A stretch of 64,000 nucleotides of DNA. Origin: a virus (lineage: Duplodnaviria; Heunggongvirae; Uroviricota; Caudoviricetes). Each line of letters starts with the position of its first letter. Position 1 is the first letter of the stretch. The notes beneath the pieces were generated by a model that worked only from the letters and a program-made list of their open reading frames with translations, did not search any database and was not told the origin of the DNA. Below are positions 3,651 to 21,007 of the stretch, piece after piece. The DNA is taken from positions 1 through 64,000 of the IMG/VR virus record IMGVR_UViG_3300035034_002381; one strand, 5' to 3'. Position numbers and translations under genes: made by a program.

Positions 3651-3789
3651 AAAGAAATTTTCAAATGTAACAACAGAAATTGAAGATGTTGATGAATGGG
3701 TATATTTATATGTAAGAATTTAAAACTTTTTTCAAACTAAAGAATATAAAGAACAATAATACCAATAAAAATTCGACTTAGAATACCTA

Positions 3790-3880
3790 AAACTAAAGTT
3801 TAAATTAGCTCATTGAGCATATTTTTTTTATAAATACGGTCTAGGTTAATCCCTAGAAATTCAAACGTTTAGTCGAATTT
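3790..3880 (+). ncRNA. Degenerate tRNA-like element (acceptor-like gtttaaat/attcaaac, D-arm-like tagctcattgagca, A/T-only anticodon-like hairpin, T-arm-like tctaggttaatccctaga)
   Basis: Hand-folded; preceded by a CTTAGAATACCTAAAAC motif. Confidence 0.3.
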
Positions 3881-3901
3881 TTATTGGTTTTTTAAAATAT
3901 T

Positions 3902-3974
3902 GCGGGGTGGACTGGAGTTGGATCCAGCTTGGTCTCATAAGCCAAATCACGGGAGTTCGAATCTCTCCCCCGCT
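3902..3974 (+). tRNA. tRNA with CAT anticodon (third Met/fMet/Ile2-type gene)
   Basis: Acceptor gcgggg/ccccgc, D-arm ctggagttggatccag, anticodon stem ttggt/gccaa with loop ctcataa, T-arm gggagttcgaatctctc. Confidence 0.65.
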
Positions 3975-4280
3975 ACTTGTTAATAGGCATTTTATCAGTA
4001 ACACTGGAAGTTTTGGCCGAATAAATTAAAAAGTAAAATGTGTGTTCGTGTGTTAGTAAAGAGCTGCACGAATTAAATTTAATAAGTTCTGACTAGTGGT
4101 TTCGGTTTAATAGGGAAAGATACTTACCACTGAAAAAACTAAAATGTATACCCTGTAGATTTTCAATATTTATCTAACTAAATATTGCGTGTTAGAAAGT
4201 TCTAGATTAACTGTGCACAGGTTATTTAGTTCTTATAAATTTTAGAATGCACTTAACAATGTAGCGTTAATCTAAAAAAT

Positions 4281-4353
4281 GCCTCGGTAACTCAGTTGGT
4301 TAGAGTATCTGCTCGACATGCAGAAAGCCACAGGTTCGAATCCTGTTCGGGGT
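4281..4353 (+). tRNA. tRNA-like gene with a G-U-rich acceptor (gcctcgg/tcggggt) and anticodon loop tcgacat (GAC, Val-like; position 33 is C). Its backbone is paralogous to the 10905-10978 gene
   Basis: Canonical D-arm actcagttggttagagt and T-arm acaggttcgaatcctgt. Confidence 0.5.
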
Positions 4354-4528
4354 ACTTATTCTACTTAGAATACTTAAACTTTATAAATTGGTTCGATTCC
4401 AATTTTTATTGGTCTTTTTCTGTCAATTAAGTATCAAATAAATTTTTAATATATTGATTGATTTGAATATATTAAACAACCTCTCTTAGAAAATCTAAGT
4501 TAGAGAAGTTAAATCATCAAAAACAAAA

Positions 4529-6472: not shown

Positions 6473-6491
6473 TCTTAATTTTCAAATTACT

Positions 6492-6527
6492 AAGGAGAGG
6501 CATTTTTGCCTCTCCTTTTTTTATGTT
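6492..6527 (+). terminator. Rho-independent terminator (aaggagaggca-ttttt-gcctctcctt plus TTTTTTT)
   Basis: Perfect 11-bp stem followed by a T-run, immediately after the Ro60 ORF. Confidence 0.8.
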
Positions 6528-6576
6528 TAAAACTATATCAATCTTAGATATATAATACAAATAAATTAAATTAAAT

Positions 6577-7140
6577 ATGAAAAATGTAAAAAACTTTCGT
6601 GAGTTTCTGAACGAGAATCGAGTCGAAAAGAGATTAGCTAGTCTGGACGCAGAATATACTATTGACAAAAAGTTGTGTAAACAATTAATGGATGTGGGAG
6701 AGCAAATAGATTATATATACAATAATTTAGATTTGCCACACTCTGACTTTGCCACTTCTAATTTTATACCACCCGAAATTGAAAACGATGATAAAACAGC
6801 GAGTGATTGGGTAGAATCTGAGAAGGCTCTTATAAGAAGTGAACTAAAATCTAAAGAATCTGAATATAAAAAAATTCTTAGAAAAATACAATCTAAACAT
6901 TCGTATATTAATGATGTAATTGAATATCTTAATCAAACTAATTTAGGTTTTACTTTAGAAAATACATTTATTGATAAAATAAACAGAAGAAATGATATCA
7001 TAAATACTGTTGTAATAAAAAGTTGGTATGGGTATGCTAAAGCTTCAAGAAAAGAATTAGAAAGATATAAAATAACACCTGAGCAACTTGCAGGTACTAT
7101 ATTATCAATGCGAGCAGTCGCTGATGAACTAACATATTAG
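6577..7140 (+). CDS. Hypothetical protein, member of the MKN-K-F-EF N-terminal paralog family
   Basis: N-terminus MKNVKNFREFLNE; promoter-like motif TTTAAAACTATATCAATCTTAGATATATAA upstream. Confidence 0.5.
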   Translation: MKNVKNFREFLNENRVEKRLASLDAEYTIDKKLCKQLMDVGEQIDYIYNNLDLPHSDFATSNFIPPEIENDDKTASDWVESEKALIRSELKSKESEYKKILRKIQSKHSYINDVIEYLNQTNLGFTLENTFIDKINRRNDIINTVVIKSWYGYAKASRKELERYKITPEQLAGTILSMRAVADELTY

Positions 7141-7224
7141 TAATAAAGTACTAAGTGATATTTGTAAACAATTAAAAAATAAGAATATCGAATGTGGCTT
7201 TGATGATGCATTCGACCCTAGTTA

Positions 7225-7425
7225 ATGGAAAGTTTTAAAAGTATACTCGAATCTAAAGATTCTGATAAACTCGCAAAAGAGATCAATAATGCAATCATTA
7301 AAATTGATGATTCTATGTCATACAAAGATTTTGCAGCTGCAGTTATCAAAATAATGAAAGAAGAATACGGAGAACACCTATATACAGAATTCTTAGGAAT
7401 TTTACAAAAAAATCTAAAGAAATGA
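7225..7425 (+). CDS. Small hypothetical protein, paralog of the 47731-47925 ORF
   Basis: N-terminus MESFKSILESKDSDKL versus MKSFKKVLENKEADKL. Confidence 0.4.
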   Translation: MESFKSILESKDSDKLAKEINNAIIKIDDSMSYKDFAAAVIKIMKEEYGEHLYTEFLGILQKNLKK

Positions 7426-7601
7426 AGACTTTTAAAGAATTTATAAACGAATCGGAATATATGGTGGTGAATGGAAAGAAAACGCCGAGATAACAGCTAG
7501 ACAATTATCTTCTGGGTTGGTTATTAGCATTGAACCTACAAAAATAAAAGTATTAGTTAGTACATCATCAGAACTAGATATCGATGTTTTAATGTCTAAC
7601 A

Positions 7602-7790
7602 ATGATAAAATTGAATATAGAAGTTATAGACGACTCGCCGTATACAAAACCAGGATCTACACAAAGTTTTATTAGAATAAAACTGAATGGAAAAACTATA
7701 TATGAAGATAAAGGAGCTAATTATGCCGACGCACCAAGTGACGAGATTATTAGAGCTTATGAAGAGGTGTATAAAATTAGATCCAAATAG
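7602..7790 (+). CDS. Small hypothetical protein
   Basis: 62-aa ORF from the six-frame track. Confidence 0.3.
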   Translation: MIKLNIEVIDDSPYTKPGSTQSFIRIKLNGKTIYEDKGANYADAPSDEIIRAYEEVYKIRSK

Positions 7791-8028
7791 GGAATACGTT
7801 TGCTTCTATACACAATAATTCAAAATATAAGACTTGAAAATGAAAAGATTTTTTAGAGTTGCTAGTATTACATCATTAATTGTTCTGTGTCTATTCACAT
7901 TTTTAATGCACGCGTTTCCATGGGAATGGTCAACTGATATTAGATTATATTGCATATTCACAATGGTTTCTTCATCGATTGTCGCGTATTTCGTAAGCCG
8001 TTAATAAAATTTAACATATAGATAACAG

Positions 8029-8058
8029 TGGGACTTTTATAGTCCCACTTTTTTTGTT
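8029..8058 (+). terminator. Rho-independent terminator (agtgggact-tttat-agtcccact plus TTTTTTT)
   Basis: Perfect 9-bp hairpin plus T-run. Confidence 0.75.
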
Positions 8059-8273
8059 TATATTTATACTGAATTTAAAAACTCAAAATAAATGTCAAGA
8101 GAAAATATGGATTATATGGGCGATGCAGTCTACGCAGAATACACGGGATGGTCAATTGATTTACGAGTCAATGATCATCGGAATCCTGTCGCTGTCGTTT
8201 TAGAAGAACTAGTCTTACAAAATTTAGTCGATTTTGCTAGACGAAAAGGTCTTAAAATCAAATAAATTATGAA

Positions 8274-8636
8274 ATGAAAGTAATTTATTCTGCAGTTTTT
8301 GTTGATAAGTCTACCCTTATAAAAAAATTTAAACCGGTATTTGATAACATTCATGCTCATCACATGACTATTGAATTTAGACCAGAATCAACAGATAATC
8401 TGGATATTGACAAAAATTACAAATTGAAAATTATCGGTAGATTAATTACAGACAAAGTTGATGTTCTTCTTGTTGATGATGGAGGCATCAGTAAAAATGA
8501 ATTCCCACACATTACAATTTCTATAGCTGATGGTGTTAGGCCTTTCGAAAGTAATACCGAAATCAAAAATAATTATTCCAAAATAACTAAACTTCGTGGA
8601 GAAATAACAGGCAAAATCGGAGTTTTCACCGCATAA
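8274..8636 (+). CDS. Small 2H phosphoesterase superfamily protein (LigT / 2',3'-cyclic phosphodiesterase or Acb1-like)
   Basis: Two H-x-T-x motifs, HHMTIEF and PHITISI, about 70 residues apart in a 120-aa protein. Confidence 0.5.
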   Translation: MKVIYSAVFVDKSTLIKKFKPVFDNIHAHHMTIEFRPESTDNLDIDKNYKLKIIGRLITDKVDVLLVDDGGISKNEFPHITISIADGVRPFESNTEIKNNYSKITKLRGEITGKIGVFTA

Positions 8637-8645
8637 ATCTTAACT

Positions 8646-8870
8646 ATGAAAAAGGTAACATTTCTAATTTTAATATTGTTCAACATTAATTTATGGGCAC
8701 AAGAACAACCAGATACAGTTTATGTTCTGAAAAGTTTTACAGTCAAAGGTGTGAGAGCTGATCCTAAAACACCGATCACACAAAAAACAATAGACAAGAA
8801 ATTTATTGAACGCAATTATTTTGGTCAAGAAATTCCTATTCTTTTAAATACCACACCATCAATAAATTAG
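8646..8870 (+). CDS. Small secreted protein
   Basis: Signal peptide MKKVTFLILILFNINLWAQ. Confidence 0.45.
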   Translation: MKKVTFLILILFNINLWAQEQPDTVYVLKSFTVKGVRADPKTPITQKTIDKKFIERNYFGQEIPILLNTTPSIN

Positions 8871-9116
8871 GTATGGAAAAATCTCAAGACTTTGAACCAA
8901 CCGAACCAGAAGAAATGTATTAAAATAATTGAAAATAACTCTTCCAGATTAAAACTTTTTGATTACTTTTGTATATATACTGTATATTTAAACAAACAAT
9001 AATGAAAACACAAATCAACATAACTACCAGTTATTCTTTAAGAAGCTTATGTACGTCGCTGAGACTATATGAGACAGGGTATCTATGTTGATCAAACATA
9101 TTTTTGATTACAAACT

Positions 9117-9150
9117 AAACCCTGTCTATTTAATTAGACAGGGTTTTTTT
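9117..9150 (+). terminator. Rho-independent terminator (aaccctgtcta-tttaatt-agacagggtt plus TTTTTTT)
   Basis: Hairpin plus T-run preceding the third tRNA cluster. Confidence 0.75.
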
Positions 9151-9155
9151 ATTTG

Positions 9156-9245
9156 GAAGATAAAGCAGCTGCATTGGAGCGGCGACTAGCCTTGAAAACT
9201 AGGTCTCGGAGAAATCTGGGTGGGGTTCGAGTCCTCTGTCTTCCT
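9156..9245 (+). tRNA. Class II tRNA-Ser (TGA)
   Basis: Acceptor ggaagat/gtcttcc, anticodon loop cttgaaa, long variable arm, T-loop ttcgagt; 90 nt. Confidence 0.55.
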
Positions 9246-9276
9246 CAAAGTTTTAGTTCATTGACATATTAATATT

Positions 9277-9362
9277 AGAGGATGCGGTAATGGTGGTTAT
9301 TACAGTATCTTGGAAAGGTACCGATCGTTTATTCGGTCAGGGTTCGACTCCCTCATCCTCTG
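9277..9362 (+). tRNA. Class II tRNA-Ser (GGA)
   Basis: Acceptor agaggatg/catcctct, anticodon stem gtatc/ggtac with loop ttggaaa, variable arm ccgatcgtttattcggtc, T-arm agggttcgactccct. Confidence 0.65.
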
Positions 9363-9493
9363 CTATGTTCTTCTTAGAATAACTAATTTATGTAAATGTG
9401 AGTTCGAATCTCATCAAATGCTTTTAGCATCTGTAGCCAAATGGTTAGGCAATATACTTGAAATATATAACAAACGATTAGAAGAACAACATG

Positions 9494-9566
9494 CTTCCAT
9501 AGTATAAAGGTTCATTATTCCTGTTTTGTAATCAGGCGATATCGGTTCGATTCCGATTGGGAGCTC
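9494..9566 (+). tRNA. tRNA-Thr (TGT)
   Basis: Acceptor gcttcca/tgggagc, anticodon loop tttgtaa, T-arm atcggttcgattccgat. Confidence 0.6.
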
Positions 9567-9714
9567 AATGAATATGATGTTTATTTAGATCCTAAAAATG
9601 ATTATCTTATTGGTATAGATAGTAAAAAAATTGAAAAGGTCGAAGAATTGTATAATGTGCGTAATAATAGACAAGGATAATTTATCTTGGAATGATATTC
9701 AAAATAAAATAAAT

Positions 9715-9795
9715 GTTTCAGTGGTGGAATGGTAGACACGTCGGTCTTAGGAACCGATGCCGAAAGGCGTGAGAGTTCGAGTCTCTCCTGGAATA
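9715..9795 (+). tRNA. Class II tRNA-Leu (TAG), canonical architecture
   Basis: D-arm gtg-gaatggtaga-cac, anticodon stem tcggt/accga with loop cttagga, variable arm gccgaaaggc, T-arm gagagttcgagtctctc. Confidence 0.65.
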
Positions 9796-9796
9796 C

Positions 9797-9876
9797 ACTC
9801 TGGTGGATTAGGTAAATTGGTACAGCTAAACGGCTTAGACCCGTATCCCTTCTGGGTTCGAATCCCAGTCAGAGTA
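9797..9876 (+). tRNA. Atypical 80-nt tRNA-like gene, family member 1. The anticodon-like hairpin is acgg-cttagac-ccgt (TAG). There is no variable arm, and a 7-nt insertion separates the acceptor from the 3-bp D-stem
   Basis: Acceptor actctgg/tcagagt, conserved block tggattaggtaaattggtacagctaa, T-arm ctgggttcgaatcccag. Confidence 0.5.
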
Positions 9877-9881
9877 CAAAT

Positions 9882-9961
9882 GCTCCTGTGGTTTATGTAA
9901 ATTGGCACAGCTAAGCGGCTTAAACCCGCAACCTTTATGGGTTCGAGTCCCATCAGGAGTA
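9882..9961 (+). tRNA. Atypical 80-nt tRNA-like gene, family member 2; anticodon-like hairpin gcgg-cttaaac-ccgc (TAA)
   Basis: Acceptor gctcctg/caggagt, conserved block tggtttatgtaaattggcacagctaa, T-arm atgggttcgagtcccat. Confidence 0.5.
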
Positions 9962-10056
9962 CAAAAGTTTATCAACGTCTTGAGTCAAGTTGGATGATGA
10001 CAAAAAGGCTAACGGCAGAAGTGAATCCATCGCACTGTGTTACATAAACTTTATCT

Positions 10057-10129
10057 GGCCAGGATTCTCAATTGGACGGGACTCTGTCTTCTAAACAGAT
10101 GTTTGTGGGTTCGAATCCCATCTTGGTCT
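10057..10129 (+). tRNA. tRNA-Arg (TCT)
   Basis: Acceptor ggccagg/cttggtc, anticodon stem tctgt/acaga with loop cttctaa, T-arm gtgggttcgaatcccat. Confidence 0.6.
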
Positions 10130-10135
10130 CTAAAC

Positions 10136-10209
10136 GCAGGTATACCTAAGTGGTTTAAAGGAGCGGATTGCAAACCCGTTATTCATTGGTTCGAATCCAA
10201 TTACCTGCT
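10136..10209 (+). tRNA. tRNA-Cys (GCA)
   Basis: Perfect acceptor gcaggta/tacctgc, anticodon loop ttgcaaa, T-arm attggttcgaatccaat. Confidence 0.7.
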
Positions 10210-10214
10210 CACTT

Positions 10215-10297
10215 GGAAGGTAACTTGATGGTGATAGAGGTAGTTTGCTAAACTACTGGCCGTTTACTCGGTCGAGGTTCGATTCCTCTGCCTTCCG
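10215..10297 (+). tRNA. Class II tRNA-Ser (GCT)
   Basis: Acceptor ggaaggt/gccttcc, anticodon stem gtagt/actac with loop ttgctaa, variable arm ggccgtttactcggtc, T-arm gaggttcgattcctc. Confidence 0.7.
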
Positions 10298-10301
10298 CTA
10301 T

Positions 10302-10379
10302 GCTCCTGTGGATTATGTAAAAGCACAGCTAACACCTTGAGGAGGTGATCCTTTGTGGGTTCGAGTCCCGCCAGGAGTA
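10302..10379 (+). tRNA. Atypical tRNA-like gene, family member 3; anticodon-like hairpin cacc-ttgagga-ggtg (GAG)
   Basis: Acceptor gctcctg/caggagt, conserved block tggattatgtaaaagcacagctaa, T-arm gtgggttcgagtcccgc. Confidence 0.5.
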
Positions 10380-10404
10380 CAAAGAAGCAAAGAGTTAGTT
10401 AGGT

Positions 10405-10479
10405 TAGACTGGCTTGTTATGTGGTGAAATTGGTAAACGCGAGCGCTTTGGTGCTTAGTAACCTTAACACTTCTTATTT
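10405..10479 (+). ncRNA. Partial tRNA-like element: a Leu-type D-arm gtg-gtgaaattggtaaac-gc plus a hairpin, with no T-arm. It abuts the next tRNA
   Basis: Shares its D-arm sequence with the 10788-10899 element. Confidence 0.3.
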
Positions 10480-10553
10480 GCTGAGTTAGTATAGTCGGTT
10501 TATTACGATACCCTGGTACGGTATTAACACCAGTTCGATTCTGGTACTCAGCT
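10480..10553 (+). tRNA. tRNA-Thr (GGT)
   Basis: Perfect acceptor gctgagt/actcagc, anticodon stem atacc/ggtat with loop ctggtac, T-arm accagttcgattctggt. Confidence 0.7.
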
Positions 10554-10565
10554 CATGAAAAATAT

Positions 10566-10645
10566 GCCTCTGTGGATTATGTAAATTGGCACAGCTAACG
10601 GTTTCAAACTCCGATCTTTTATGGGTTCGAATCCCATCAGAGGCA
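10566..10645 (+). tRNA. Atypical tRNA-like gene, family member 4; anticodon-like hairpin cgg(t)-ttcaaac-(t)ccg (CAA)
   Basis: Perfect acceptor gcctctg/cagaggc, conserved block tggattatgtaaattggcacagctaa, T-arm atgggttcgaatcccat. Confidence 0.5.
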
Positions 10646-10661
10646 CAAGTAGGAGAAATTT

Positions 10662-10746
10662 AGTCCAGTGGCGAAACAGGTATACGCACAAGATTTAAGC
10701 TCTTGCTTCCATTGAGGAATTGCGGGTTCGATTCCCGCCTGGATTA
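10662..10746 (+). tRNA. Class II tRNA-Leu (TAA), canonical architecture
   Basis: Acceptor agtccag/ctggatt, D-arm gcg-aaacaggtata-cgc, anticodon stem caaga/tcttg with loop tttaagc, variable arm ttccattgaggaa, T-arm gcgggttcgattcccgc. Confidence 0.65.
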
Positions 10747-10787
10747 CTAAGTTAGTACGGGTTCGATCCCCGTCTTGGCTACTAAAT

Positions 10788-10899
10788 TTGACCGTGGTGA
10801 AATTGGTAAACACACCCTTAAATCAGGGAGTATGAGAATATGTACTTGAAGCTGACGCAGAACATCATACATATGTAGGTTCGAATCCTATCGGTCGAA
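10788..10899 (+). ncRNA. 112-nt tRNA-like RNA with a roughly 45-nt extra stem-loop (atatgta...tacatat) inserted before the T-arm
   Basis: Acceptor ttgaccg/cggtcga, Leu-type D-arm gtg-aaattggtaaa-cac, anticodon-like ccc-ttaaatca-ggg, T-arm gtaggttcgaatcctat. Confidence 0.4.
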
Positions 10900-10904
10900 C
10901 AAAT

Positions 10905-10978
<74 letters not shown>

Positions 10979-11325
10979 CTATCTAAAACTTTATTCAATT
11001 TCCATAATATAATGTGTAACTAAACTTTATAGAAATGGAAAAAATACTAATGTCTGAAATTTTGACTTATGACAACTTCGACGACGGTTTACCTGAAGAA
11101 TATGAATTTGTCGATTCTGAACAAACATATTTTGATGGTGAAAAAGGCTTTGTTAATATCGAAGCTATTATCAGAAGAGAATCAGACTCACAATTTTTAA
11201 AGTAAAATACACCGATTATGGAAAAGGTGAAAATGATCTTATGGAAAGTGTGGGCGAACCTGTAACTCAAAAATCCAAAACAATTTTCTACTATGTAACT
11301 CAAAAATCCAAAACAATTTTCTACT

Positions 11326-11598
11326 ATGAATAGTATGACCTTTTTATTAGGCATTACGTATGTTATCGGATACTTTTTAAGTATCATAATCCTAAAAAGA
11401 TTTCACCATATTTTGGATATTCCAGATTATAATTCATATCCAAAATATAATGAATATTCAAGCAATGCACAAGCATACACAATGTGGTCAATTGTATGGC
11501 CGTTATTTTGGGTCTTAAAAATCATAGTTCTTCTTTTCGAAAAACTTATTAATTTAACTAAATATATACTAAATGGAAACTCAAGCTCAAGAAAGTAA
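11326..11598 (+). CDS. Small membrane protein with two hydrophobic segments
   Basis: LLGITYVIGYFLSIIIL and MWSIVWPLFWVLKIIVLLF. Confidence 0.4.
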   Translation: MNSMTFLLGITYVIGYFLSIIILKRFHHILDIPDYNSYPKYNEYSSNAQAYTMWSIVWPLFWVLKIIVLLFEKLINLTKYILNGNSSSRK

Positions 11599-12508
11599 TA
11601 GAATAATCAAAGAAATTCATTCTTCTTTTTATTCAATGGATCAAGAAACTGATACATATCTTCAACGCCAAATTCAAGCTGCGTATGACGAATCTATCAA
11701 AGGCTCTTTAGAGAAGACTATCAAAAAATATGGTTTTAATAATGCCAAAAACTCTGACATTTTTGATAAAGCATTACTTGAAAGTCGGGAAGAATTAAAT
11801 GATGTCTTAAACGAATGTTCAGTGACATATCCAGGTAAAAAGTTTATTACTGATGAACAAATAGCACAGCTTTGTATCAAATATAATTTATTACTAACAA
11901 CACCAGATAGATTTATTGGTGAAATACCAGAACGTAATATCCAAGAGTTGAACGACTTTAATCCAAAAGGTAGCGAAAAAAAGGCGTTTTTTGATCCCAA
12001 AGTTTTTTATAAATTATATAACTTTATAAGAGAATATGAAGAGAAGCATTATTATATGAATAAAAATCTAAAAAAATCTATTGCAATGATTTATCGATCA
12101 TTTATGAATCATAGTAACATGGATTCAATACTTTTTCCAGATAATAATAAATATATTGTTCATGGTGTCAATGAAGATAAATCAATCACCACAACTGAAT
12201 TAGGTATTCAAACAGCAAAGAAAATATCTGAAGAATTATCTAAGAAAGAAAGAAATTCTGTACCTATTTTACCGTTGTTTTCACAAACTATGATAGCAGC
12301 GACATCTGATTTACTTGATATTCCTAAACTAGGATTGATCAAGAATAAAAGAAATGAACTTGTTTTAGGTCTTAATTCAAAACAATTTAAAGAAAATTTT
12401 CTACCTGATCCAATTGTACTACATAAAGTAAAACGTGGTGCTATTATTATAACTGCTTGGGGCTTGGAATCTCAAGATGAACTAGTATTCAATCCTATTA
12501 TTAATTGA
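11573..12508 (+). CDS. Hypothetical protein
   Basis: 311-aa ORF. Confidence 0.45.
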   Translation: METQAQESNRIIKEIHSSFYSMDQETDTYLQRQIQAAYDESIKGSLEKTIKKYGFNNAKNSDIFDKALLESREELNDVLNECSVTYPGKKFITDEQIAQLCIKYNLLLTTPDRFIGEIPERNIQELNDFNPKGSEKKAFFDPKVFYKLYNFIREYEEKHYYMNKNLKKSIAMIYRSFMNHSNMDSILFPDNNKYIVHGVNEDKSITTTELGIQTAKKISEELSKKERNSVPILPLFSQTMIAATSDLLDIPKLGLIKNKRNELVLGLNSKQFKENFLPDPIVLHKVKRGAIIITAWGLESQDELVFNPIIN

Positions 12509-12712: not shown

Positions 12713-14710
12713 ATGAAAAAACTATTACTATTATTAATGCTATTTTCTTCTGTGAATTTATTTTCACAAGAAAATTATTTGATCCTTGATACCATTGGTA
12801 TGGATCAATACGAAAAACAAATTTTTGAGGAAAAAGTAAATTCCCCAGAATCTAACGAAGAGATTTCATGTTTAACCTTATTTGCTGGATCCAGACATGA
12901 ATTTAATTCAAAGTTAAAATCAATTAACGAATCAAAAAGCAATGTTGATATTAACGAAACTATTAGAATTCCCGTTGTTTATCATATTATGCACATTACC
13001 AAATTTGGTCTTGGTGGAGTTCCTTTCGAATCAGGACTAATTAGCAAACAACAAGTGTGGTCTGCTTTGGATGATCATATTAAAGGATTCCAAGCATATG
13101 TTGGGACTCGTCAAGAAACGGGATATGATACTAATATAGAATTTTATTTAGCAAACCTGGATGAAGAAGGAAATTTATTTGACGGTGTTATTTATTATGA
13201 TATGGACACAGTCCCCTGGGTAACTACTGAGGAAAGAGAACAATTTTTTAATTTCGGAATGTTTGGTATTGGACTTGATGATTTCTTAATCAAAAATAAC
13301 ATTTCATTAGACCCTGATAGATATCTAAATGTTTACATTACTCCAGAGATTTCTGGTAATGATGGAGGTAATGGGATCCAAGGATATGCATTTTTTCCAG
13401 GTGGTACTCAAGCACTTTGGGGACAAACAAATTTATCAAATATAGTAGGATTACCTTCAGTAAACTATTATGATGCTGATTTTGATGGTATAATGGACGA
13501 AGGAGTGGGGCCTTTACTTAAACCCAGTGCTCAAGAAAATGATACCCATCCACACGAAACCGGACATAATTTCCGTCTTTATCATACATTCCAAGGACAA
13601 AGTTGTGCAATTGAAGGTAATTGTGATACCCAAGGAGATGGAATCTGTGATACGGAGCCAACCCCACGTAATACCCAATGTAATTATAATGGGTGTCCGA
13701 CTCCTACCCCCGTTTCTAATAAGAATTATATGTCATATTCAGAATGCAGGTTTGAATTTACCGAAGACCAAAACCATGAAATGCGATCTTCTTTCACTGA
13801 AGATCTACCATTACTTGTTAGCAGTATTGATTCGGGATTATGTTATATTCCAAGACAAACCCAAGTTGAAATGATCATCCCACAATCAAACGATATAACA
13901 GGATGTCCCGATTCTCCTTTCCTTTCTTTTACTGTAAGAAACCTAGGTCCTGAAGTTGATTCAACAGGAATCCCGGTTATGTTAACAAATCTTGTTATAG
14001 CTTATGGAAATGATTTGTCTAACGTTGACACGTTTGAATTTAATTTAAATTTAGGTCCTTTCCAATATGATGATTTAGTTTTACCTTCTGTAGATAATCA
14101 AAGTTCAAATAGAAAGATCAAATTACTTTCTGTTAACGGATTTCCGGTAGAAGATTCAAGCACTCTTTCTACTAATCTTCCAGTAGGACCTAATGAATTA
14201 ATTGTAGTTTGCCAACCAAACTGTTCATCAATACAAGATAATTATTGGAAAGTTACAAATTTAAATACTGGAACTATTGCATTCCAAAGTGAATATTATC
14301 CTGTTAATTATTCAGGACCTCCTATCGAAACAAGGATCTGTTTACCTGGAGGCAATTATCAATTTTCATTAATTGATGAATCTGAAAATGGTTGGAATGG
14401 TACTTTTTGTAATCCCGATTTTTTCGATGAACCATTTATGGAAGTTTATTACAATGGATCCTTATGTCAATCTATACAAGGTGATGAATTTAATAGTTCT
14501 GAGTGGTCATTTACAAATTGTAACACTAGTACTCAGGGACTGATTGAAAATGAAGAAGAACCTGTTTTAGAATATGAGTACTATACTCAACAAATGGAAA
14601 GAGTAGAATTTGAAGATATTGTTACAAACCAATTCTTTATAATTTATACTTATGAAAAATCTGAAAGTTCTAGAGAGTTGATCGATAGAGATTGGATCAT
14701 AAAACAGTAA
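12713..14710 (+). CDS. Secreted zinc metalloprotease, peptidase family M43 (pappalysin / ulilysin / cytophagalysin-like metzincin)
   Basis: Signal peptide MKKLLLLLMLFSSVNLFSQ. Extended zinc motif HETGHNFRLYHTFQG (HExxHxxxxxH, family M43) followed by the Cys-rich CDTQGDGICDTEPTP (the ulilysin GDxxxDTP signature). Confidence 0.75.
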   Translation: MKKLLLLLMLFSSVNLFSQENYLILDTIGMDQYEKQIFEEKVNSPESNEEISCLTLFAGSRHEFNSKLKSINESKSNVDINETIRIPVVYHIMHITKFGLGGVPFESGLISKQQVWSALDDHIKGFQAYVGTRQETGYDTNIEFYLANLDEEGNLFDGVIYYDMDTVPWVTTEEREQFFNFGMFGIGLDDFLIKNNISLDPDRYLNVYITPEISGNDGGNGIQGYAFFPGGTQALWGQTNLSNIVGLPSVNYYDADFDGIMDEGVGPLLKPSAQENDTHPHETGHNFRLYHTFQGQSCAIEGNCDTQGDGICDTEPTPRNTQCNYNGCPTPTPVSNKNYMSYSECRFEFTEDQNHEMRSSFTEDLPLLVSSIDSGLCYIPRQTQVEMIIPQSNDITGCPDSPFLSFTVRNLGPEVDSTGIPVMLTNLVIAYGNDLSNVDTFEFNLNLGPFQYDDLVLPSVDNQSSNRKIKLLSVNGFPVEDSSTLSTNLPVGPNELIVVCQPNCSSIQDNYWKVTNLNTGTIAFQSEYYPVNYSGPPIETRICLPGGNYQFSLIDESENGWNGTFCNPDFFDEPFMEVYYNGSLCQSIQGDEFNSSEWSFTNCNTSTQGLIENEEEPVLEYEYYTQQMERVEFEDIVTNQFFIIYTYEKSESSRELIDRDWIIKQ

Positions 14711-17119: not shown

Positions 17120-19195
17120 ATGAACAAAGATTCTAATGTATTATTAATACTTGAAAGATCTTCATCAAATCTAGATGTTAACAAGGAATCGGGTGATTAT
17201 ATTCTCGAAGGTATTTTTGCTCAATTTGGAGTTGAAAACAATAACAAAAGGATTTATGAGGAAAAAGAGTATTTACCACATCTCGAATACTTAAAAAAGA
17301 AAATTTCAGAAAATCGATTGATGGGAGAACTTGATCACCCAGAAAAATTTGAAATTGCTTTAGACAAAGTATCTCACGTAATTGAGAATATTGAATATGA
17401 TCAAGCAAAACGCCAGATTAAAGGGCGTGTACGTATTTTAGATACGCCATCCGGAAAAATCGCAAAGAGTCTAATCGACTCTAATATTCCTATTAGTATT
17501 TCATCACGAGCTGCTGGTTCTGTGAGTGAAAATAAAACTGTTTCTATTAAGAGAATTTTTACTTATGATTTAGTTGCTGATCCAGGTTTTGAAGATGCAC
17601 AATTATCAAGAATAAATGAATCATTTGGTTTAGACAACGAAAATAATCTACAAATTTTTGATGCTTCTAGATGGGACAACAATTTTTCGTTTGATGAAAA
17701 AGAAAAAGAAAAGCCTGTTGAGGCAATAAAAGAAAATAAAGAAAATACTACAGATATGAAAGAATTTGTGACAATTGAAAGCATGGAACGCTATTCATTA
17801 ATGGTCAAAGAAGAAATTGCTAAAATCAATACACGATTAGAAACTCTGAATGAGAGTAATGCTAATTCTGATGAAACAGCAGAACTTAGAAAAACCGTTG
17901 ATAATTTAGTAGGGTATGTTAATGAAATGGCTACCGAAATTAATCAAAACAGAGAATACATGTCATATACTGCTGAAATGCTTGACGAAAGTATTTCTTG
18001 GTCAGAAAATGAGATCGGTAATCAAGTTACTAAATTAATTGAATATACTGAATCTGAATTGGCTGTTCATCTTGATGGTTTAATTGAACACAATAACTAT
18101 CTTGCAGAAAAATTAAACACGACTATTGGATACGTTAATGAAGAATTGGCTCCAATTTTAGATGAGTCTATTAATCACAATGATTATTTAGTTGAACAAA
18201 TTGCTAATAACCGAAAATATACTGAGTATCTTGCTGAAAATGCTGTAGACTCAACAAATTTTGATTCGTTAGTAGAATATACTGAACATGTATATGAAAA
18301 TGCTGCTGGAAAATTTGAAGGTAAAATTAATGAATCTGCAACTGCTGAGGATGTAATTAAAAAACATAAACTTAAAACACATCACGATGTTGCTAAGTTT
18401 ATAGGAGATTTTTATGATTTACCAGATACAATTAAAGGATCTACCGATAAATTCACATTTAAAGACGTTGAGGACAACGTAATTAAAGTTGATGGTAAAG
18501 CAGGAACAGTAGACGGTAAAAAATTATCTCTGGCGGGATTGGTTGATCTTATGTCAGGTGGTGATTTTGATCTTCTTATTGAAAATCAAGCTAATAAAAT
18601 TAACGAAAATAAAAACGTATCAACAGATATTGAAAATCGATACATGAGTATCAATGAAAAAATTGACGCGGCTCTTGAGCAGATCAAGAAAACAAAGACT
18701 GAAGAAATCACAGAGTCTAAACGTCATCCTTTCACCAAACTACTCAACGAAAGTAATAGAGCTGCTTTCACTGAGTTAGGAAAAACCGAAAAAGAAAAGG
18801 TTTCAAAAGCTCTAAATGAAAACGGTATTTTAAGTACTGTAAAACTTAACGAAAAATTCACTTCATTGTTAGAAGGTAATTTCGAAATTGTTGAAGAGCC
18901 TAAATGGTTATCTGAAGCACCAGACAAGTATAAAGCTATTTTTGAAAGTTTGAATGAGGAAACTCAGGATAAACTTAGAGCTCAAGCTTCATGGTACGAA
19001 GGTAAACTTAAATCTCCTTATCAAATCGAAAATTTCTGGGCAACTAGAGGACTGAACGAAGACGTTGAGTTGAAGAATCTGAAAGACGATGCTGATGTAA
19101 AACTTATTAAAGAAAGTAATGATAGATCTAAAGATCTGGGTTATTCTTCTGATCGAGTTGCTGCAATTAAACAAGGTCTGAAAAGATTCAAATAA
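17120..19195 (+). CDS. Probable prohead protease fused to a scaffolding-type coiled-coil domain
   Basis: Sits immediately upstream of the major capsid gene. The N-terminal roughly 200 aa contain EGIFAQFGVENNNKRIYEEKEY...GELDHPE (T4 gp21 / S77-like). The rest is an acidic, heptad-rich segment typical of scaffold proteins. Confidence 0.5.
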   Translation: MNKDSNVLLILERSSSNLDVNKESGDYILEGIFAQFGVENNNKRIYEEKEYLPHLEYLKKKISENRLMGELDHPEKFEIALDKVSHVIENIEYDQAKRQIKGRVRILDTPSGKIAKSLIDSNIPISISSRAAGSVSENKTVSIKRIFTYDLVADPGFEDAQLSRINESFGLDNENNLQIFDASRWDNNFSFDEKEKEKPVEAIKENKENTTDMKEFVTIESMERYSLMVKEEIAKINTRLETLNESNANSDETAELRKTVDNLVGYVNEMATEINQNREYMSYTAEMLDESISWSENEIGNQVTKLIEYTESELAVHLDGLIEHNNYLAEKLNTTIGYVNEELAPILDESINHNDYLVEQIANNRKYTEYLAENAVDSTNFDSLVEYTEHVYENAAGKFEGKINESATAEDVIKKHKLKTHHDVAKFIGDFYDLPDTIKGSTDKFTFKDVEDNVIKVDGKAGTVDGKKLSLAGLVDLMSGGDFDLLIENQANKINENKNVSTDIENRYMSINEKIDAALEQIKKTKTEEITESKRHPFTKLLNESNRAAFTELGKTEKEKVSKALNENGILSTVKLNEKFTSLLEGNFEIVEEPKWLSEAPDKYKAIFESLNEETQDKLRAQASWYEGKLKSPYQIENFWATRGLNEDVELKNLKDDADVKLIKESNDRSKDLGYSSDRVAAIKQGLKRFK

Positions 19196-19213
19196 AAAAT
19201 AATTTCATAATAA

Positions 19214-21007
19214 ATGAAACTTTTAAACGAACAAAAGATCTATGATGAGTGGGCTCCTATGCTAGAGGAGGAAACTTCAATCAAAGATTCTTCAAAATTG
19301 GGATGGATGACTAAATATTGTCACTACCATTCATTAAATGAAGCATTCACTGCACCTGCAGCTGGATTGCTTAACACGCCAGGTATGGGTAATGTAACTC
19401 CTGCTGGAGCTGCTGCCGGTGGTGCTAATGCATTCTACGGAAGTACTACTACTGGTTCAGGAGATAAATTCCCTTCATTATTGCCACTATCTATTCAGGT
19501 AGCTGCAAGAACTGTAGGATTTGATATCGTTCCTGTTATTCCTATGAACGGACCTTCGGGGGTTCTTACATACATGGATTATGTCTATGCTGGTGGAAAA
19601 GGAGCATTCGGAGCACCTCCAGGTGCTGCAGGTGCTGCAAACCCAGGTCTTAACGCTTACGCTGACAAGCCGTTAGTATTCAAAATCCAACTTGTTGGAG
19701 ATGAGAAAACTGCTTTCGATGCTGCTGCTGCGGGTGATGAATTCTTATTTGCTTCTGGTGCACTTGCTGCAACTGGAAACACACTACGTGTTGCTAAAAT
19801 CGGTCCTTCTAGAATCGACGGTCACTCTATTTTTAGAGTAATTGGAGAATCTGGTGATGCTGATGCGACTGGCGGTGCAGCTGCTGCTGTAGCGACAACT
19901 CTTACATCGCCACAATCTATCACATTGGCTTCTGTATTTACAGGAACTGCTGCGATGATTACTGCGGCTGGTGCTTTAGTTGATGCTGCTGATTCAGTAG
20001 TTAATCGTCCAGAACTTGTTAAAGCTCTTGAAGATCACGTTCAAGGTTTTGCTGGTGCAGGTCCAAACGATGATGAAGCATGGTCAGGAAATGCGACTGA
20101 TGGTACTGTATCTTACGAACCAATGCGAAGAGGTGTAGGTGAAGAGCAGTACTTCAGAACTATGGGACTTCAAGCTTTCACGAAATTCATTGAAGCTGAA
20201 ACTTTCCAAGTTGCTGCTAATGTTACTACAGAACAAATTCAAGATTTACAACGTCAGTATGGAATCGATGTGATTGCAATGATCGAGAACTCATTAGTAA
20301 ATGATATCTCTCAATCTATTAACAAGCACATTCTTTCTAGAGCTTTCGCTCTTGGATGGGGTGCAAACCTTACATTCAGAGATGTTGAAGGTGCAAACCT
20401 TAACCTTGAATTGGTAAACACTGGAACTGGTGTTACTGCAACTCCTGCTTACATTGATAAGACTGGAGTAGGTACTGCATCTGTATATCCTGCTTTCCAA
20501 GAATTTGCTGGAGCTGCTGCTGCTGCATCATTGGAAAACCAAGCAACATTCCAACGAAGAGTATATTCTAAAGTACTTGCTGCTGGAAACGTTGTTACTC
20601 AAAGAGGACGTAGAGGACCTGCAAACTTCATTGTTACTAACCTTCAGTTAGCGACAGCGTTGCAAGATTCTGCACAATTCTCTTGGGCACCAATGGCAAA
20701 CACCATTAACCAAAACAACGGTTCGCTTTACCCAGTGGGTACTGTAGCCGGAATGACTGTTTATGTAGATCCTAACATGGGATTCTCTGATAACAGAATT
20801 CTTGTTGGACGTAAAGGTGCTGATGAAGAACCAGGACTTAAATTCATGCCTTACTTAATGGCTGAATCAATCCAAACAATTGCTGAAGGTACAATGGCTC
20901 CGAAAGTTGCCGTAAAATCACGTTATGCTTTAGTTGAAGCTGGACACCACCCAGAAACAATGTACTTTACTATTGCAGTAAATGTACCTGTAGGTGGATT
21001 AGTATAA
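19214..21007 (+). CDS. Major capsid protein
   Basis: 597-aa Ala/Gly-rich protein directly after the protease/scaffold gene, followed by a strong terminator, with codon usage typical of highly expressed virion genes. Confidence 0.6.
   Translation: MKLLNEQKIYDEWAPMLEEETSIKDSSKLGWMTKYCHYHSLNEAFTAPAAGLLNTPGMGNVTPAGAAAGGANAFYGSTTTGSGDKFPSLLPLSIQVAARTVGFDIVPVIPMNGPSGVLTYMDYVYAGGKGAFGAPPGAAGAANPGLNAYADKPLVFKIQLVGDEKTAFDAAAAGDEFLFASGALAATGNTLRVAKIGPSRIDGHSIFRVIGESGDADATGGAAAAVATTLTSPQSITLASVFTGTAAMITAAGALVDAADSVVNRPELVKALEDHVQGFAGAGPNDDEAWSGNATDGTVSYEPMRRGVGEEQYFRTMGLQAFTKFIEAETFQVAANVTTEQIQDLQRQYGIDVIAMIENSLVNDISQSINKHILSRAFALGWGANLTFRDVEGANLNLELVNTGTGVTATPAYIDKTGVGTASVYPAFQEFAGAAAAASLENQATFQRRVYSKVLAAGNVVTQRGRRGPANFIVTNLQLATALQDSAQFSWAPMANTINQNNGSLYPVGTVAGMTVYVDPNMGFSDNRILVGRKGADEEPGLKFMPYLMAESIQTIAEGTMAPKVAVKSRYALVEAGHHPETMYFTIAVNVPVGGLV

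What the first reader, a model, noticed from the sequence alone, without database searches (positions are those of the whole stretch)
12713..14710. Secreted M43 (pappalysin/ulilysin-type) metzincin encoded by the phage
The protein has a Bacteroidetes-type signal peptide and an intact extended zinc site (HETGHNFRLYH) plus the family-specific Cys-rich DTxP segment. It is 665 aa with a long C-terminal region that may be a T9SS or CBM-like domain. It may digest host surface proteins or capsule, or act as an auxiliary gene benefiting the infected cell.
Basis: partly seen in the sequence, partly recalled or inferred. Interest (0 to 1): 0.5.

Follow-up and report, generated by a model that had tools for sequence, protein, structure and literature searches.

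The report
Phage-borne secreted M43 zinc protease
A fragment of a very large bacteriophage carries an intact gene for an exported zinc protease of the pappalysin/ulilysin family; close relatives lie in several unrelated phages, often beside the cell-bursting genes, so it is probably a shared phage tool for cutting host envelope or surface proteins.

Summary
ORF 12713..14710 (+, 665 aa) is a bona fide M43 (pappalysin/ulilysin/mirolysin-type) metzincin. Pfam PF05572 scores 41.6 bits against a cutoff of 23. H281/E282/H285/H291 and the Met-turn N338-Y-M340-S-Y342 are invariant across 25 relatives. The fold matches ulilysin and mirolysin (Foldseek E 6e-13). It has a Bacteroidota-type Sec signal peptide (cleavage LFS|Q) and a pro-segment with a conserved Cys53, a candidate cysteine switch.

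The phage origin is also right. The window is a fragment of a Lak-like huge phage: Gp23-type capsid protein 40-43% identical to megaphages, an S77 prohead protease, and 21 tRNA genes.

The T9SS/CBM guess is not supported. The C-terminal 285 aa are two generic Ig/FN3-like sandwiches plus a ~47-aa three-strand tail. No T9SS sorting-domain model matches, whereas the long cellular Flavobacteriales relatives do carry that domain.

New here: the protein belongs to a short, sorting-domain-less group. Nine of ten members checked are phage-encoded, and they come from unrelated phages (huge, crAss-like, and ~40-45 kb phages). In five loci the gene lies in or within three genes of the holin/endolysin cassette. 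No GenBank phage record has a full-length homologue. The biological role is inferred, not shown: most likely an exported zymogen acting on host envelope or surface proteins late in infection.

The parts
12713..14710 (+). Complete gene for a 665-aa pre-pro M43 (pappalysin-family) zinc endopeptidase
   Evidence: ORF; Pfam PF05572 41.6 bits; ulilysin and mirolysin sequence and fold matches; identical protein P0001 on a 64.4-kb metagenomic contig.
12713..12766 (+). Sec/SPI signal peptide, residues 1-18 (MKKLLLLLMLFSSVNLFS). Predicted cleavage exposes Gln19, following the Bacteroidetes Q-rule.
   Evidence: Translation and hydropathy; helix 2-19 in AF2; M1 K2 K3 L4 L5 invariant; a Gln follows the hydrophobic leader in 14 of 15 family N-termini listed (my reading of the printed sequences); Q-rule described in PMC5837995. 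No Cys in the first 25 residues, so not a lipoprotein.
12767..12952 (+). Pro-segment, residues 19-80, low-confidence or disordered. It holds the only N-terminal cysteine, Cys53 (12869..12871), a candidate cysteine switch.
   Evidence: C53 invariant in A1. A single Cys in the same place is visible in 9 of the 11 further relatives printed (P0030-35, P0037, P0046, P0141). pLDDT below 50 over residues 44-80. Cysteine-switch latency of unicellular pappalysins is described in PMC6949598. The Gly of the CG motif is absent here (C-L).
12953..13828 (+). Catalytic metzincin domain, residues 81-372
   Evidence: pLDDT 82-95 over most of residues 81-240; Foldseek to ulilysin 3lum E 5.7e-13 and mirolysin 6r7w E 1e-10; Pfam match over residues 199-359.
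13553..13585 (+). Extended zinc-binding motif HETGHNFRLYH (H281, E282, H285, H291). The canonical Gly of HEXXHXXGXXH is Arg288.
   Evidence: H281/E282/G284/H285/H291 invariant in 25 sequences. The Gly position varies in the family (G, A, G, A in P0002-P0005). It is Asn in ulilysin and Asp in mirolysin (PMC6949598).
13724..13738 (+). Met-turn N338-Y-M340-S-Y342
   Evidence: Aligned to NYMDY of ulilysin; N338, M340 and Y342 invariant or nearly invariant.
13859..14212 (+). First Ig-like beta-sandwich, residues 383-500. CARDB/DUF7507-like; contains the TVRNLG motif.
14225..14518 (+). Second beta-sandwich, residues 505-602, with conserved QNYW, YPNF and D..GNG motifs
   Evidence: AF2 strands over residues 510-600; invariant Q508 N510 W512 Y529 P530 C543 G547 D555 N559 G560 Y579 N581; no Pfam family at E<=10.
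14567..14710 (+). C-terminal tail of 47 aa with three predicted strands. It may be a truncated remnant of a type A T9SS sorting domain, but it is not a recognisable one.
   Evidence: AF2 strands 619-624, 640-647 and 651-658. A tail motif (Y-Y-D/N-x-x-G-x-x-V ... G-x-Y-I-I ... K) recurs in the family. hhalign against cellular sorting domains falls in the expected register, but P=0.031 and probability is 1.6%. No hit with PF18962, TIGR04183 or my own sorting-domain HMM.
11326..11598 (+). Context: small 90-aa protein with two hydrophobic segments (holin-like topology), two genes upstream. Its relation to the protease is unknown.
   Evidence: no Pfam family.
17120..21007 (+). Context: T4-type prohead protease (17120..19195) and Gp23-type major capsid protein (19214..21007). 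These identify the window as phage.
   Evidence: PHROG head maturation protease and major head protein; Pfam S77 and Gp23; capsid protein 40-43% identical to Lak megaphages and a 462-kb uncultured phage.
229..10979 (+). Context: array of 21 tRNA genes, typical of huge phages
   Evidence: ARAGORN.

Best explanation
The gene encodes a pre-pro zinc endopeptidase of the lower-pappalysin (M43B; ulilysin/mirolysin/cytophagalysin) type. It is carried as an accessory gene by a Lak-like huge phage of a Bacteroidota host, probably Flavobacteriales.

Shown:
- The domain order is signal peptide, Cys-containing pro-segment, intact metzincin catalytic domain, two Ig-like sandwiches, short tail.
- Its nearest cellular relatives are long Flavobacteriales proteases that carry T9SS sorting domains.
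- It belongs to a short group (about 560-730 aa) without a sorting domain, whose members are encoded by several unrelated phages.

Inferred:
- The protein is exported by Sec.
- The leader is cut before Gln19.
- The zymogen stays latent through Cys53 on the zinc until the pro-segment is removed.
- Lacking a T9SS sorting domain, it stays in the periplasm until lysis and is then released.
- In five related phage loci the gene lies inside or within three genes of the holin/endolysin cassette. The most likely role is therefore a late egress or envelope enzyme. It would cut host envelope or surface proteins, such as outer-membrane tethers, surface adhesins or receptor proteins, at or after lysis, helping release and/or destroying receptors on debris and neighbouring cells.
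For: Identity:
- Pfam M43 above the cutoff.
- Ulilysin by sequence.
- Ulilysin, mirolysin and PAPP-A by fold.
- Invariant zinc ligands, Glu, Met-turn and Cys pattern.

Export: signal peptide and Q-rule (PMC5837995).

Zymogen: conserved pro-segment Cys, with precedent in PMC6949598 and PMC8259862.

Phage origin of the window.

Phage-borne group:
- Genomic context was checked for P0001-P0004, P0032, P0036, P0037, P0046, P0057 and P0072. It is phage-like for nine of these ten and unclear for P0057. P0004 rests on a faint baseplate hit and P0037 on gene content without a structural gene. P0005 sits on a 2.2-kb contig with no usable context.
- No other window gene is shared with those phages.
- In an NJ tree eight of the nine phage-encoded proteins fall in two adjacent clusters; P0072 lies just outside them.

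Lysis-cassette adjacency:
- L002 and L159: M43, then two small TM proteins, then an Amidase_2 endolysin.
- L160: two small TM proteins, then M43, a secreted 466-aa protein, and Amidase_2.
- L163: M43, then Phage_holin_4_1.
- L001: M43, two genes, a TM protein, then an M15 endolysin.

Loss of the sorting domain:
- The top 12 relatives (575-731 aa) have none.
- 75 of the 150 best relatives have one, and nearly all of those are 900 aa or longer.

Cellular relatives are Flavobacteriales, especially Cryomorphaceae, at 28-31% identity over residues 81-560.
Against: - No experiment exists, so substrate, timing and localisation are all inferred.
- In the window itself no endolysin or holin family was detected near the gene. 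There is only an unassigned 2-TM protein two genes upstream. The lysis link therefore rests on homologues in other phages.
- Those other phages already have spanin-like genes, so a protease is not obviously needed for lysis.
- Arg288 replaces the canonical Gly of the zinc motif. The Asp that lines the S1' pocket in ulilysin and mirolysin is not conserved: Ser343/Glu344 here, and T or Q in relatives (PMC6949598). Specificity, and conceivably activity, may differ.
- The C-terminal tail might still work as a minimal T9SS signal, which would change the localisation.
- The NJ tree has no bootstrap support and is midpoint-rooted.
Confidence: 0.55

Rival explanations
1. T9SS cargo. The short C-terminal tail is a minimal but functional T9SS signal. 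The host T9SS would then secrete the protease to the cell surface or medium during infection, for example to strip receptor proteins (superinfection exclusion) before lysis.
For: - The closest cellular relatives are T9SS cargo with PF18962.
- The family tail motif resembles the last strands of a type A sorting domain and aligns in the right register.
- P0004 keeps a longer, more sorting-domain-like tail, with a weak HMM hit at E 0.0068.
- A terminal Lys is conserved (…IIKQ).
- The last 22 residues of HBP35 were reported to carry the targeting signal (PMC11285876).
Against: - No hit to PF18962 or TIGR04183 at E<=1 to 10, nor to my own sorting-domain HMM.
- hhalign probability is 1.6%.
- Only about 47 residues and 3 strands are present. 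A 70-100-residue 7-strand sandwich with the L-beta3-beta4 motif is required (PMC11285876).
- The PNP motif is absent.
Confidence: 0.17
2. Auxiliary metabolic gene. The protease digests extracellular or periplasmic proteins and peptides to supply amino acids to the infected cell during the long replication cycle of a huge phage.
For: - The window phage carries many metabolic and host-modifying genes: NAMPT, a PRPP-synthetase-like gene, thymidylate synthase and glycosyltransferases.
- In this window the gene is not visibly in a lysis cassette.
- Flavobacteriales use secreted M43-type proteases for protein degradation; cytophagalysin is gelatinolytic (PMC11674741).
Against: - Without a sorting domain the enzyme should not leave the periplasm before lysis.
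- In five other phage loci, from small lytic-type genomes where nutrient scavenging is less plausible, the gene lies in or within three genes of the lysis genes.
Confidence: 0.13
3. Virion-associated enzyme. The protease is a tail or fibre-attached enzyme, analogous to a depolymerase, that cuts a proteinaceous surface layer during adsorption.
For: - In L001, L157 and L004 the gene follows tail-fibre or baseplate-like genes (BNR_2, phiTE_241_C, a faint Baseplate_J_C hit).
- Ig-like domains are common in virion proteins.
Against: - Nearly all family N-termini printed carry a cleavable Sec signal peptide, and a Gln follows the leader in 14 of 15 (my reading). This routes the protein out of the cytoplasm, where virions assemble.
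- Flanking structural genes lack signal peptides.
- There is no similarity to any tail protein, and no match in 50,697 phage records.
Confidence: 0.05
4. Decaying passenger gene. It is a recently captured host gene with no selected function in the phage, or an inactive binding protein.
For: Arg replaces the canonical Gly in the zinc motif, the S1' Asp is lost, and the sorting domain is truncated.
Against: - The 665-codon ORF is intact.
- All catalytic residues and Cys residues are invariant across proteins only 30-44% identical and carried by unrelated phages.
- The gene's GC (0.33) matches the phage's (0.32).
- The two extra domains are conserved.
Confidence: 0.05

Closest known systems
Mirolysin (Tannerella forsythia) and ulilysin (Methanosarcina acetivorans): lower pappalysins, MEROPS M43B
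   Same: - Metzincin catalytic fold (Foldseek E 1e-10 to 6e-13, TM on target 0.68-0.69).
- HEXXHXXXXXH zinc site, NYM(D/S)Y Met-turn, DTxP segment and conserved cysteines.
[quoted passage not shown]
- The canonical Gly of the motif is also replaced in both known enzymes: Asn in ulilysin, Asp in mirolysin.
   Different: - About 22-23% identity only.
- A clade-specific insert before the active-site helix (residues about 233-277, with YYDADFDG).
- The S1' Asp is not conserved, so Arg/Lys P1' specificity cannot be assumed.
- The CG motif is C-L here.
- Two extra Ig-like domains are present.
- Mirolysin is a secreted T9SS cargo (PMC11285876). This protein has no recognisable sorting domain.
- It is encoded by a phage.
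Cytophagalysin CPL1 (Cytophaga sp.) and the multi-domain M43 proteases of Flavobacteriales (Cryomorphaceae and others)
   Same: - Same architecture logic: signal peptide, pro-segment, M43 catalytic domain, then an Ig-like domain packed on the catalytic domain and further beta-sandwiches (PMC11674741).
- Cellular relatives align through both sandwiches, over residues 81-560 at 28-31% identity.
   Different: - The cellular proteins are 900-5000 aa with more domains and a terminal T9SS sorting domain.
- The phage proteins stop after two sandwiches plus a ~45-aa tail.
- Most of the phage-encoded proteins cluster together in the tree.
Accessory lysis enzymes of phages, e.g. mycobacteriophage LysB esterase or spanins (functional analogy only)
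   Same: The gene lies in or next to holin/endolysin cassettes in five related phage loci. The product is exported to the compartment outside the cytoplasmic membrane. That these known enzymes act there is my own background knowledge, not a tool result.
   Different: There is no sequence or fold relationship. A protease has not been shown to act in lysis here. The window copy is not next to recognisable lysis genes.
Q-rule secreted proteins of Porphyromonas gingivalis phages (PMC10367356)
   Same: Phage-encoded proteins with Bacteroidota Sec signal peptides that expose an N-terminal Gln. They were proposed to modify the host envelope.
   Different: Those are proteins of unknown function in temperate phages. 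No M43 protease is reported there.

Membership tests
Peptidase family M43 (pappalysin / ulilysin type metzincins) | Match to the family profile above the curated threshold | tested here: met
   PF05572: 41.6 bits against gathering 23, E 1.5e-10, residues 199-359. All five close relatives also carry PF05572.
Peptidase family M43 (pappalysin / ulilysin type metzincins) | Extended zinc-binding motif HEXXHXXGXXH with three His ligands and the catalytic Glu | tested here: met
   H281-E282-T-G-H285-N-F-R288-L-Y-H291. The His and Glu residues are invariant in 25 sequences. Gly is replaced by Arg here, but this position is Asn in ulilysin and Asp in mirolysin (PMC6949598).
Peptidase family M43 (pappalysin / ulilysin type metzincins) | Met-turn beneath the zinc site, followed by Tyr | tested here: met
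   N338-Y-M340-S-Y342 aligns with NYMDY of ulilysin. M340 and Y342 are invariant or nearly invariant.
Peptidase family M43 (pappalysin / ulilysin type metzincins) | Metzincin catalytic fold most similar to solved pappalysins | tested here: met
   The top 12 Foldseek PDB hits are ulilysin, mirolysin and PAPP-A (E 6e-13 to 5e-9). The model has mean pLDDT 73, with the catalytic core at 82-95.
Peptidase family M43 (pappalysin / ulilysin type metzincins) | Conserved cysteines forming the two family disulfides downstream of the zinc site | tested here: inconclusive
   C304, C323, C328 and C345 are invariant in 25 sequences and C312 in the five close relatives. Pairing cannot be read from a model with pLDDT below 50 over residues 296-299 and 321-335.
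Peptidase family M43 (pappalysin / ulilysin type metzincins) | Cysteine-switch pro-segment with a conserved Cys-Gly motif (unicellular pappalysins) | tested here: inconclusive
   A single pro-segment Cys (C53) is conserved, but it is followed by Leu rather than Gly. The region is modelled with low confidence, and no zinc is present in the model.
Peptidase family M43 (pappalysin / ulilysin type metzincins) | Asp at the bottom of S1' giving Arg/Lys P1' specificity (a property of ulilysin and mirolysin, not of the whole family) | tested here: not met
   The loop is two residues shorter. The position two residues before C345 is Ser343, and T or Q in relatives (PMC6949598). Glu344 might substitute, but this is untested.
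T9SS cargo proteins (type A or B C-terminal sorting domain) | N-terminal Sec signal peptide | tested here: met
   See the signal-peptide evidence. This rests on sequence inspection; no SignalP-type tool was available.
T9SS cargo proteins (type A or B C-terminal sorting domain) | C-terminal match to PF18962 / TIGR04183 (type A) or TIGR04131 (type B) | tested here: not met
   No such family is listed at E<=1 in Pfam or NCBIfam for the full protein, or at E<=10 for the C-terminal 286 aa of five members. My own HMM of 18 cellular sorting domains gives E 0.2 with negative domain scores for this protein.
T9SS cargo proteins (type A or B C-terminal sorting domain) | Terminal 70-100-residue, 7-strand Ig-like sandwich (PMC11285876) | tested here: not met
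   Only about 47 residues with 3 predicted strands follow the last conserved domain. hhalign to sorting domains gives P 0.031 and probability 1.6%.
Carbohydrate-binding module | Sequence or fold match to a CBM family | tested here: not met
Phage lysis cassette component | Adjacency to holin, endolysin or spanin genes | tested here: inconclusive
   Met in L002, L159, L160, L163 and L001. Not met in the window, where no lysis family was detected among the ORFs scanned.

The most novel reading that the evidence does not exclude
Phages of Flavobacteriales and other Bacteroidota share, by horizontal transfer between unrelated lineages (huge Lak-like, crAss-like, and ~40-45-kb phages), a dedicated exported pappalysin-type protease. 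It would have been captured from host T9SS cargo and stripped of its sorting domain. It would act as a previously unrecognised protein-cutting step of phage egress: severing outer-membrane or surface-protein tethers, or destroying protein receptors, alongside holin, endolysin and spanin.
Probability: 0.25. Interest if true: 0.7.

Novelty: new variant of a known kind. Interest (0 to 1): 0.45.

Why it matters
M43 proteases are known as secreted virulence or nutrition enzymes of cells. Examples are mirolysin, cytophagalysin, ulilysin and human PAPP-A.

Here one belongs to a group that travels between unrelated phages of Bacteroidota and often lies inside their lysis modules. tblastn of three group members against 50,697 deposited phage genomes found no full-length homologue, and full-text searches for M43/pappalysin together with phage found no relevant paper.

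If the enzyme acts on the host envelope or on receptor proteins, it would add a proteolytic step to phage release or superinfection control in a phylum whose lysis machinery is poorly understood. It would also provide compact, sorting-domain-free pappalysins for biochemistry.

If it is only a passenger protease, it is an ordinary moron gene.

Tried and rejected
- tblastn of the protein, and of P0003, against 50,697 phage records gave no match. P0072 gave one 7.6-kb faecal fragment.
- Megablast of window 5-25 kb against phages gave no match.
- PHROGs has no family for the protein.
- An IMG/VR scan with the family patterns found no confirmed relative.
- A profile search with the C-terminal region (A2) returned nothing, not even the members themselves. 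I treat this as a tool limitation, not as evidence.
- A T9SS sorting domain was tested four ways and rejected as a recognisable domain.
- A CBM was rejected.
- Stop-codon recoding, as in Lak phages, was considered because TAG ends only 1 of 51 long ORFs. Reading TAG as sense does not lengthen genes meaningfully, so the standard code holds.
- The 311-aa upstream neighbour was tested as a hidden endolysin. It has no Pfam, PHROG or PDB match.
- The promoter and terminator scan around the gene was no better than shuffled sequence.
- tblastn found no other window gene shared with the other M43-carrying phage loci.
- BFVD holds no phage M43 fold; only giant-virus metalloproteases appear, at low TM.
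Full report
**1. Observation**

The ORF at 12713..14710 (+) is real: 665 codons, ATG to TAA. It is identical to a protein already called on a 64.4-kb metagenomic contig (P0001). The quoted motifs translate at the expected places:
- HETGHNFRLYH at 13553..13585
- CDTEPT at 13646..13663
- NYMSY at 13724..13738

The start is confirmed by homologues, whose first five residues (MKKLL) are invariant. The gene's GC content (0.33) matches the window's (0.32), so it is not a recent compositional foreigner.

**2. What the protein is**

Several independent lines place it in the M43 family:
- Pfam Peptidase_M43 scores 41.6 bits against a gathering score of 23.
- phmmer finds ulilysin structures at E 4e-6, with the zinc helix, DTP segment and Met-turn aligned.
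- An AlphaFold2 model built on a 25-sequence alignment has mean pLDDT 73 and a catalytic core at 82-95.
- Its best PDB matches are ulilysin (E 5.7e-13, TM on target 0.69), mirolysin of Tannerella forsythia (E 1e-10) and PAPP-A.

In the 25-sequence alignment H281, E282, G284, H285, H291, C304, D309, D313, T314, C323, C328, Y342, C345 and Q353 are invariant, and N338 and M340 nearly so.

The canonical Gly of HEXXHXXGXXH is Arg288. This position varies in the close relatives (G or A). It is Asn in ulilysin and Asp in mirolysin (PMC6949598).

The Asp that lines S1' in ulilysin and mirolysin and gives Arg/Lys P1' specificity is not conserved. The loop is two residues shorter, with Ser343-Glu344 before Cys345. 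Specificity should therefore not be assumed.

**3. N-terminus**

Residues 1-18 (MKK + a 14-residue hydrophobic core with mean hydropathy 2.37 + LFS) form a Sec/SPI signal peptide by inspection. AF2 models them as a helix. No Cys is present, so this is not a lipoprotein.

Cleavage would expose Gln19. A Gln follows the hydrophobic leader in 14 of 15 family N-termini printed (my reading of those sequences). This is the Bacteroidetes Q-rule (PMC5837995) and points to a Bacteroidota host.

Between the leader and the catalytic domain lies a low-confidence pro-segment. It holds one cysteine (Cys53), invariant in the five close relatives, and a single Cys is visible at the same place in 9 of the 11 further relatives printed. 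Unicellular pappalysins are zymogens held latent by a pro-segment cysteine on the zinc (PMC6949598, PMC8259862). I infer the same here. The Gly of the published CG motif is missing, and the model cannot show the contact.

**4. C-terminal 285 residues**

AF2 predicts two beta-sandwiches (residues ~383-500 and ~505-602), a low-confidence linker, and a 47-residue tail with three strands.

Evidence on what these domains are:
- Pfam finds no family at E<=10, apart from weak DUF7507 hits in relatives.
- An exhaustive HMM search shows that both sandwiches are shared with hundreds of longer proteins, whose matches run to profile positions ~517-550 of 608.
- This parallels the Ig-like D3/D4 domains that follow the catalytic domain of cytophagalysin (PMC11674741).

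They are therefore family-typical spacer or substrate-binding domains, not a CBM.

The T9SS idea was tested directly, with these results:
- PF18962, TIGR04183 and TIGR04131 do not appear at E<=1 or at E<=10 on the isolated C-terminus.
- An HMM built from the sorting domains of 18 cellular relatives gives nothing significant for the window protein.
- A profile-profile comparison aligns the tail with the last strands of a sorting domain in the expected register, but only at P 0.031 and probability 1.6%.

A functional sorting domain is a 70-100-residue seven-strand sandwich that needs both its C-terminal motif and its beta3-beta4 loop (PMC11285876). The tail is too short for that. My reading is that the tail is a truncated remnant. 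P0004 keeps a longer, more sorting-domain-like version.

**5. The surroundings**

All ORFs of 150 aa or more but one lie on the + strand. The window holds:
- 21 tRNA genes at 229..10979;
- a T4-type prohead protease (17120..19195) and a Gp23-type capsid protein (19214..21007);
- NAMPT, a PRPP-synthetase-like gene, thymidylate synthase, several methyltransferases and a run of polysaccharide-type transferases.

The capsid protein is 40-43% identical over 98-99% of its length to the ~540-kb Lak megaphages of Prevotella and to a 462-kb uncultured phage. The window is therefore a fragment of a huge phage.

The standard genetic code applies.

No endolysin or holin family was detected among the window ORFs scanned. 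A 90-aa protein with two hydrophobic segments lies two genes upstream.

**6. Relatives and their homes**

The word-indexed search found only four close relatives (30-41% identity, full length). More distant cellular proteins carry PF18962. The exhaustive search found 17,966 relatives, 1,028 of them at E<=1e-30.

By my sorting-domain HMM, the 12 best hits (575-731 aa) all lack a sorting domain. In contrast, 75 of the 150 best hits have one, and nearly all of those are 900 aa or longer (confirmed by Pfam for P0040 and P0044).

I looked up the genomic context of ten short members and found nine in phage-like contigs:

| Protein | Locus | Context |
|---|---|---|
| P0001 | window | Lak-like huge phage |
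| P0002, P0036 | L001, L157 | Two syntenic ~44.5-kb phages with DnaB and RecT; L001 also has an M15 endolysin |
| P0003, P0032, P0046 | L002, L159, L160 | crAss-like phages with ring proteins (muzzle protein in L002 and L159); P0032 comes from the same sample as the window |
| P0037 | L161 | Phage-like contig with PRPP synthetase and DHFR; no structural gene seen |
| P0072 | L163 | 39.7-kb phage with NinG |
| P0004 | L004 | Faint baseplate neighbour |
| P0057 | L162 | Unclear |

P0005 sits on a 2.2-kb contig with no usable context.

None of these phages shares any other gene with the window. In an NJ tree eight of the nine phage-encoded proteins fall in two adjacent clusters; P0072 lies just outside them (no bootstrap). 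The closest cellular relatives are Flavobacteriales, especially Cryomorphaceae, at 28-31% identity.

Deposited phage genomes hold no full-length homologue, and BFVD holds no phage M43 fold. Full-text searches combining Peptidase_M43 or pappalysin with phage, or phage-encoded metalloprotease with type IX secretion, found no relevant paper.

**7. Position in the other phages**

- In L002 and L159 the order is M43, two small TM proteins, an Amidase_2 endolysin, then spanin-like small proteins.
- In L160 two small TM proteins precede M43. A second Q-rule secreted protein and Amidase_2 follow it.
- In L163, M43 (here with a lipobox) is followed directly by a Phage_holin_4_1.
- In L001 a TM protein and an M15 endolysin lie three genes downstream.

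Flanking structural genes have no signal peptides.

**8. Mechanism**

Shown: the domain architecture, the intact catalytic machinery, phage carriage across unrelated lineages, the absence of a recognisable sorting domain, and the lysis-cassette adjacency in relatives.

Inferred:
- Sec export;
- leader cleavage before Gln19;
- cysteine-switch latency;
- periplasmic residence until lysis;
- action on host envelope or surface proteins late in infection.

I put about 0.9 on the biochemical identity and about 0.35-0.4 on the egress/envelope role specifically. The stated confidence of 0.55 covers the combined statement.

Rivals:
- T9SS secretion through a minimal signal (0.17)
- nutrient-scavenging auxiliary gene (0.13)
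- virion enzyme (0.05)
- decaying passenger (0.05)

**9. Novelty and verdict**

The protein is a new member of a well-known protease family. The new aspects are its membership of a phage-borne, sorting-domain-less group, and the repeated association of that group with lysis modules.

I rate it a new variant of a known kind, with interest 0.45.

Noticed in passing
window 229..10979: Array of 21 tRNA genes on the + strand (Met x3, Tyr x2, Ile x2, Val x2, Leu x3, Ser x2, Thr x2, Arg x2, Phe, His, Cys). This is typical of huge phages.
   Followed up: partly
window 19214..21007: The Gp23-type major capsid protein is 40-43% identical over 98-99% of its length to Lak megaphages (~540 kb, Prevotella) and to a 462-kb uncultured phage, LR756500. 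The window is therefore a fragment of a Lak-like huge phage, probably from a non-gut Bacteroidota host.
   Followed up: partly
window, whole: TAG ends only 1 of 51 ORFs of 100 aa or more (TAA 40, TGA 10). Reading TAG as sense does not lengthen genes, so the standard code applies, unlike in the Lak phages.
   Followed up: yes
window 26960..43976: Run of sugar and surface-polysaccharide-type genes: NTP_transferase, a GT2-like glycosyltransferase, methyltransferases, Glyco_trans_1_2, LicD, GT25 and a polysaccharide pyruvyl transferase. These could remodel host surface glycans or modify phage DNA. A weak TAGT hit occurs at 42417..43178.
   Followed up: no
window 34123..37714 and 48873..49403: NAD-salvage-type set: a PRPP-synthetase-like protein, a Zeta_toxin/AAA_33 kinase with an NT5C-like part, NAMPT (PHROG 448, E 8e-172) and a NUDIX protein.
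   Followed up: no
window 26041..26505: SET-domain protein (E 5e-11) encoded by the phage.
   Followed up: no
window 21117..22802: A 561-aa HNH/homing-endonuclease-like gene lies immediately downstream of the major capsid gene.
   Followed up: no
window 1201..2661: SPFH/Band_7 protein with an N-terminal transmembrane segment.
   Followed up: no
window 11326..11598 and 11573..12508: A 90-aa protein with two hydrophobic segments (holin-like topology) overlaps the start of a 311-aa ORFan just upstream of the protease. Neither matches any Pfam or PHROG family, and the 311-aa ORFan has no PDB match.
   Followed up: partly
window 13457..13543 (protein residues ~249-277): Clade-specific insert just before the active-site helix, containing YYDADFDGIMD (consensus YYDxDGDG). 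It resembles a calcium-binding loop. Model confidence is low there.
   Followed up: no
L160 10130..11530; L161 3448..4155; L157 8666..9673; L159 954..1946: Other exported or hydrolytic genes accompany the M43 gene in related phages. These are a second Q-rule secreted 466-aa protein (weak Peptidase_M26_N hit), a BBP2 outer-membrane beta-barrel, and BD-FAE esterases.
   Followed up: no
L159 (ENA ERZ27315366, contig k141_2803): A crAss-like phage in the same sample as the window carries its own M43 relative (P0032). Two unrelated phages in one community therefore hold the gene.
   Followed up: partly
(tool behaviour): The profile search with the C-terminal alignment A2 returned no hits at all, not even the five member proteins. 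I treat this as a limitation of the candidate-collection step, not as evidence of absence.
   Followed up: no
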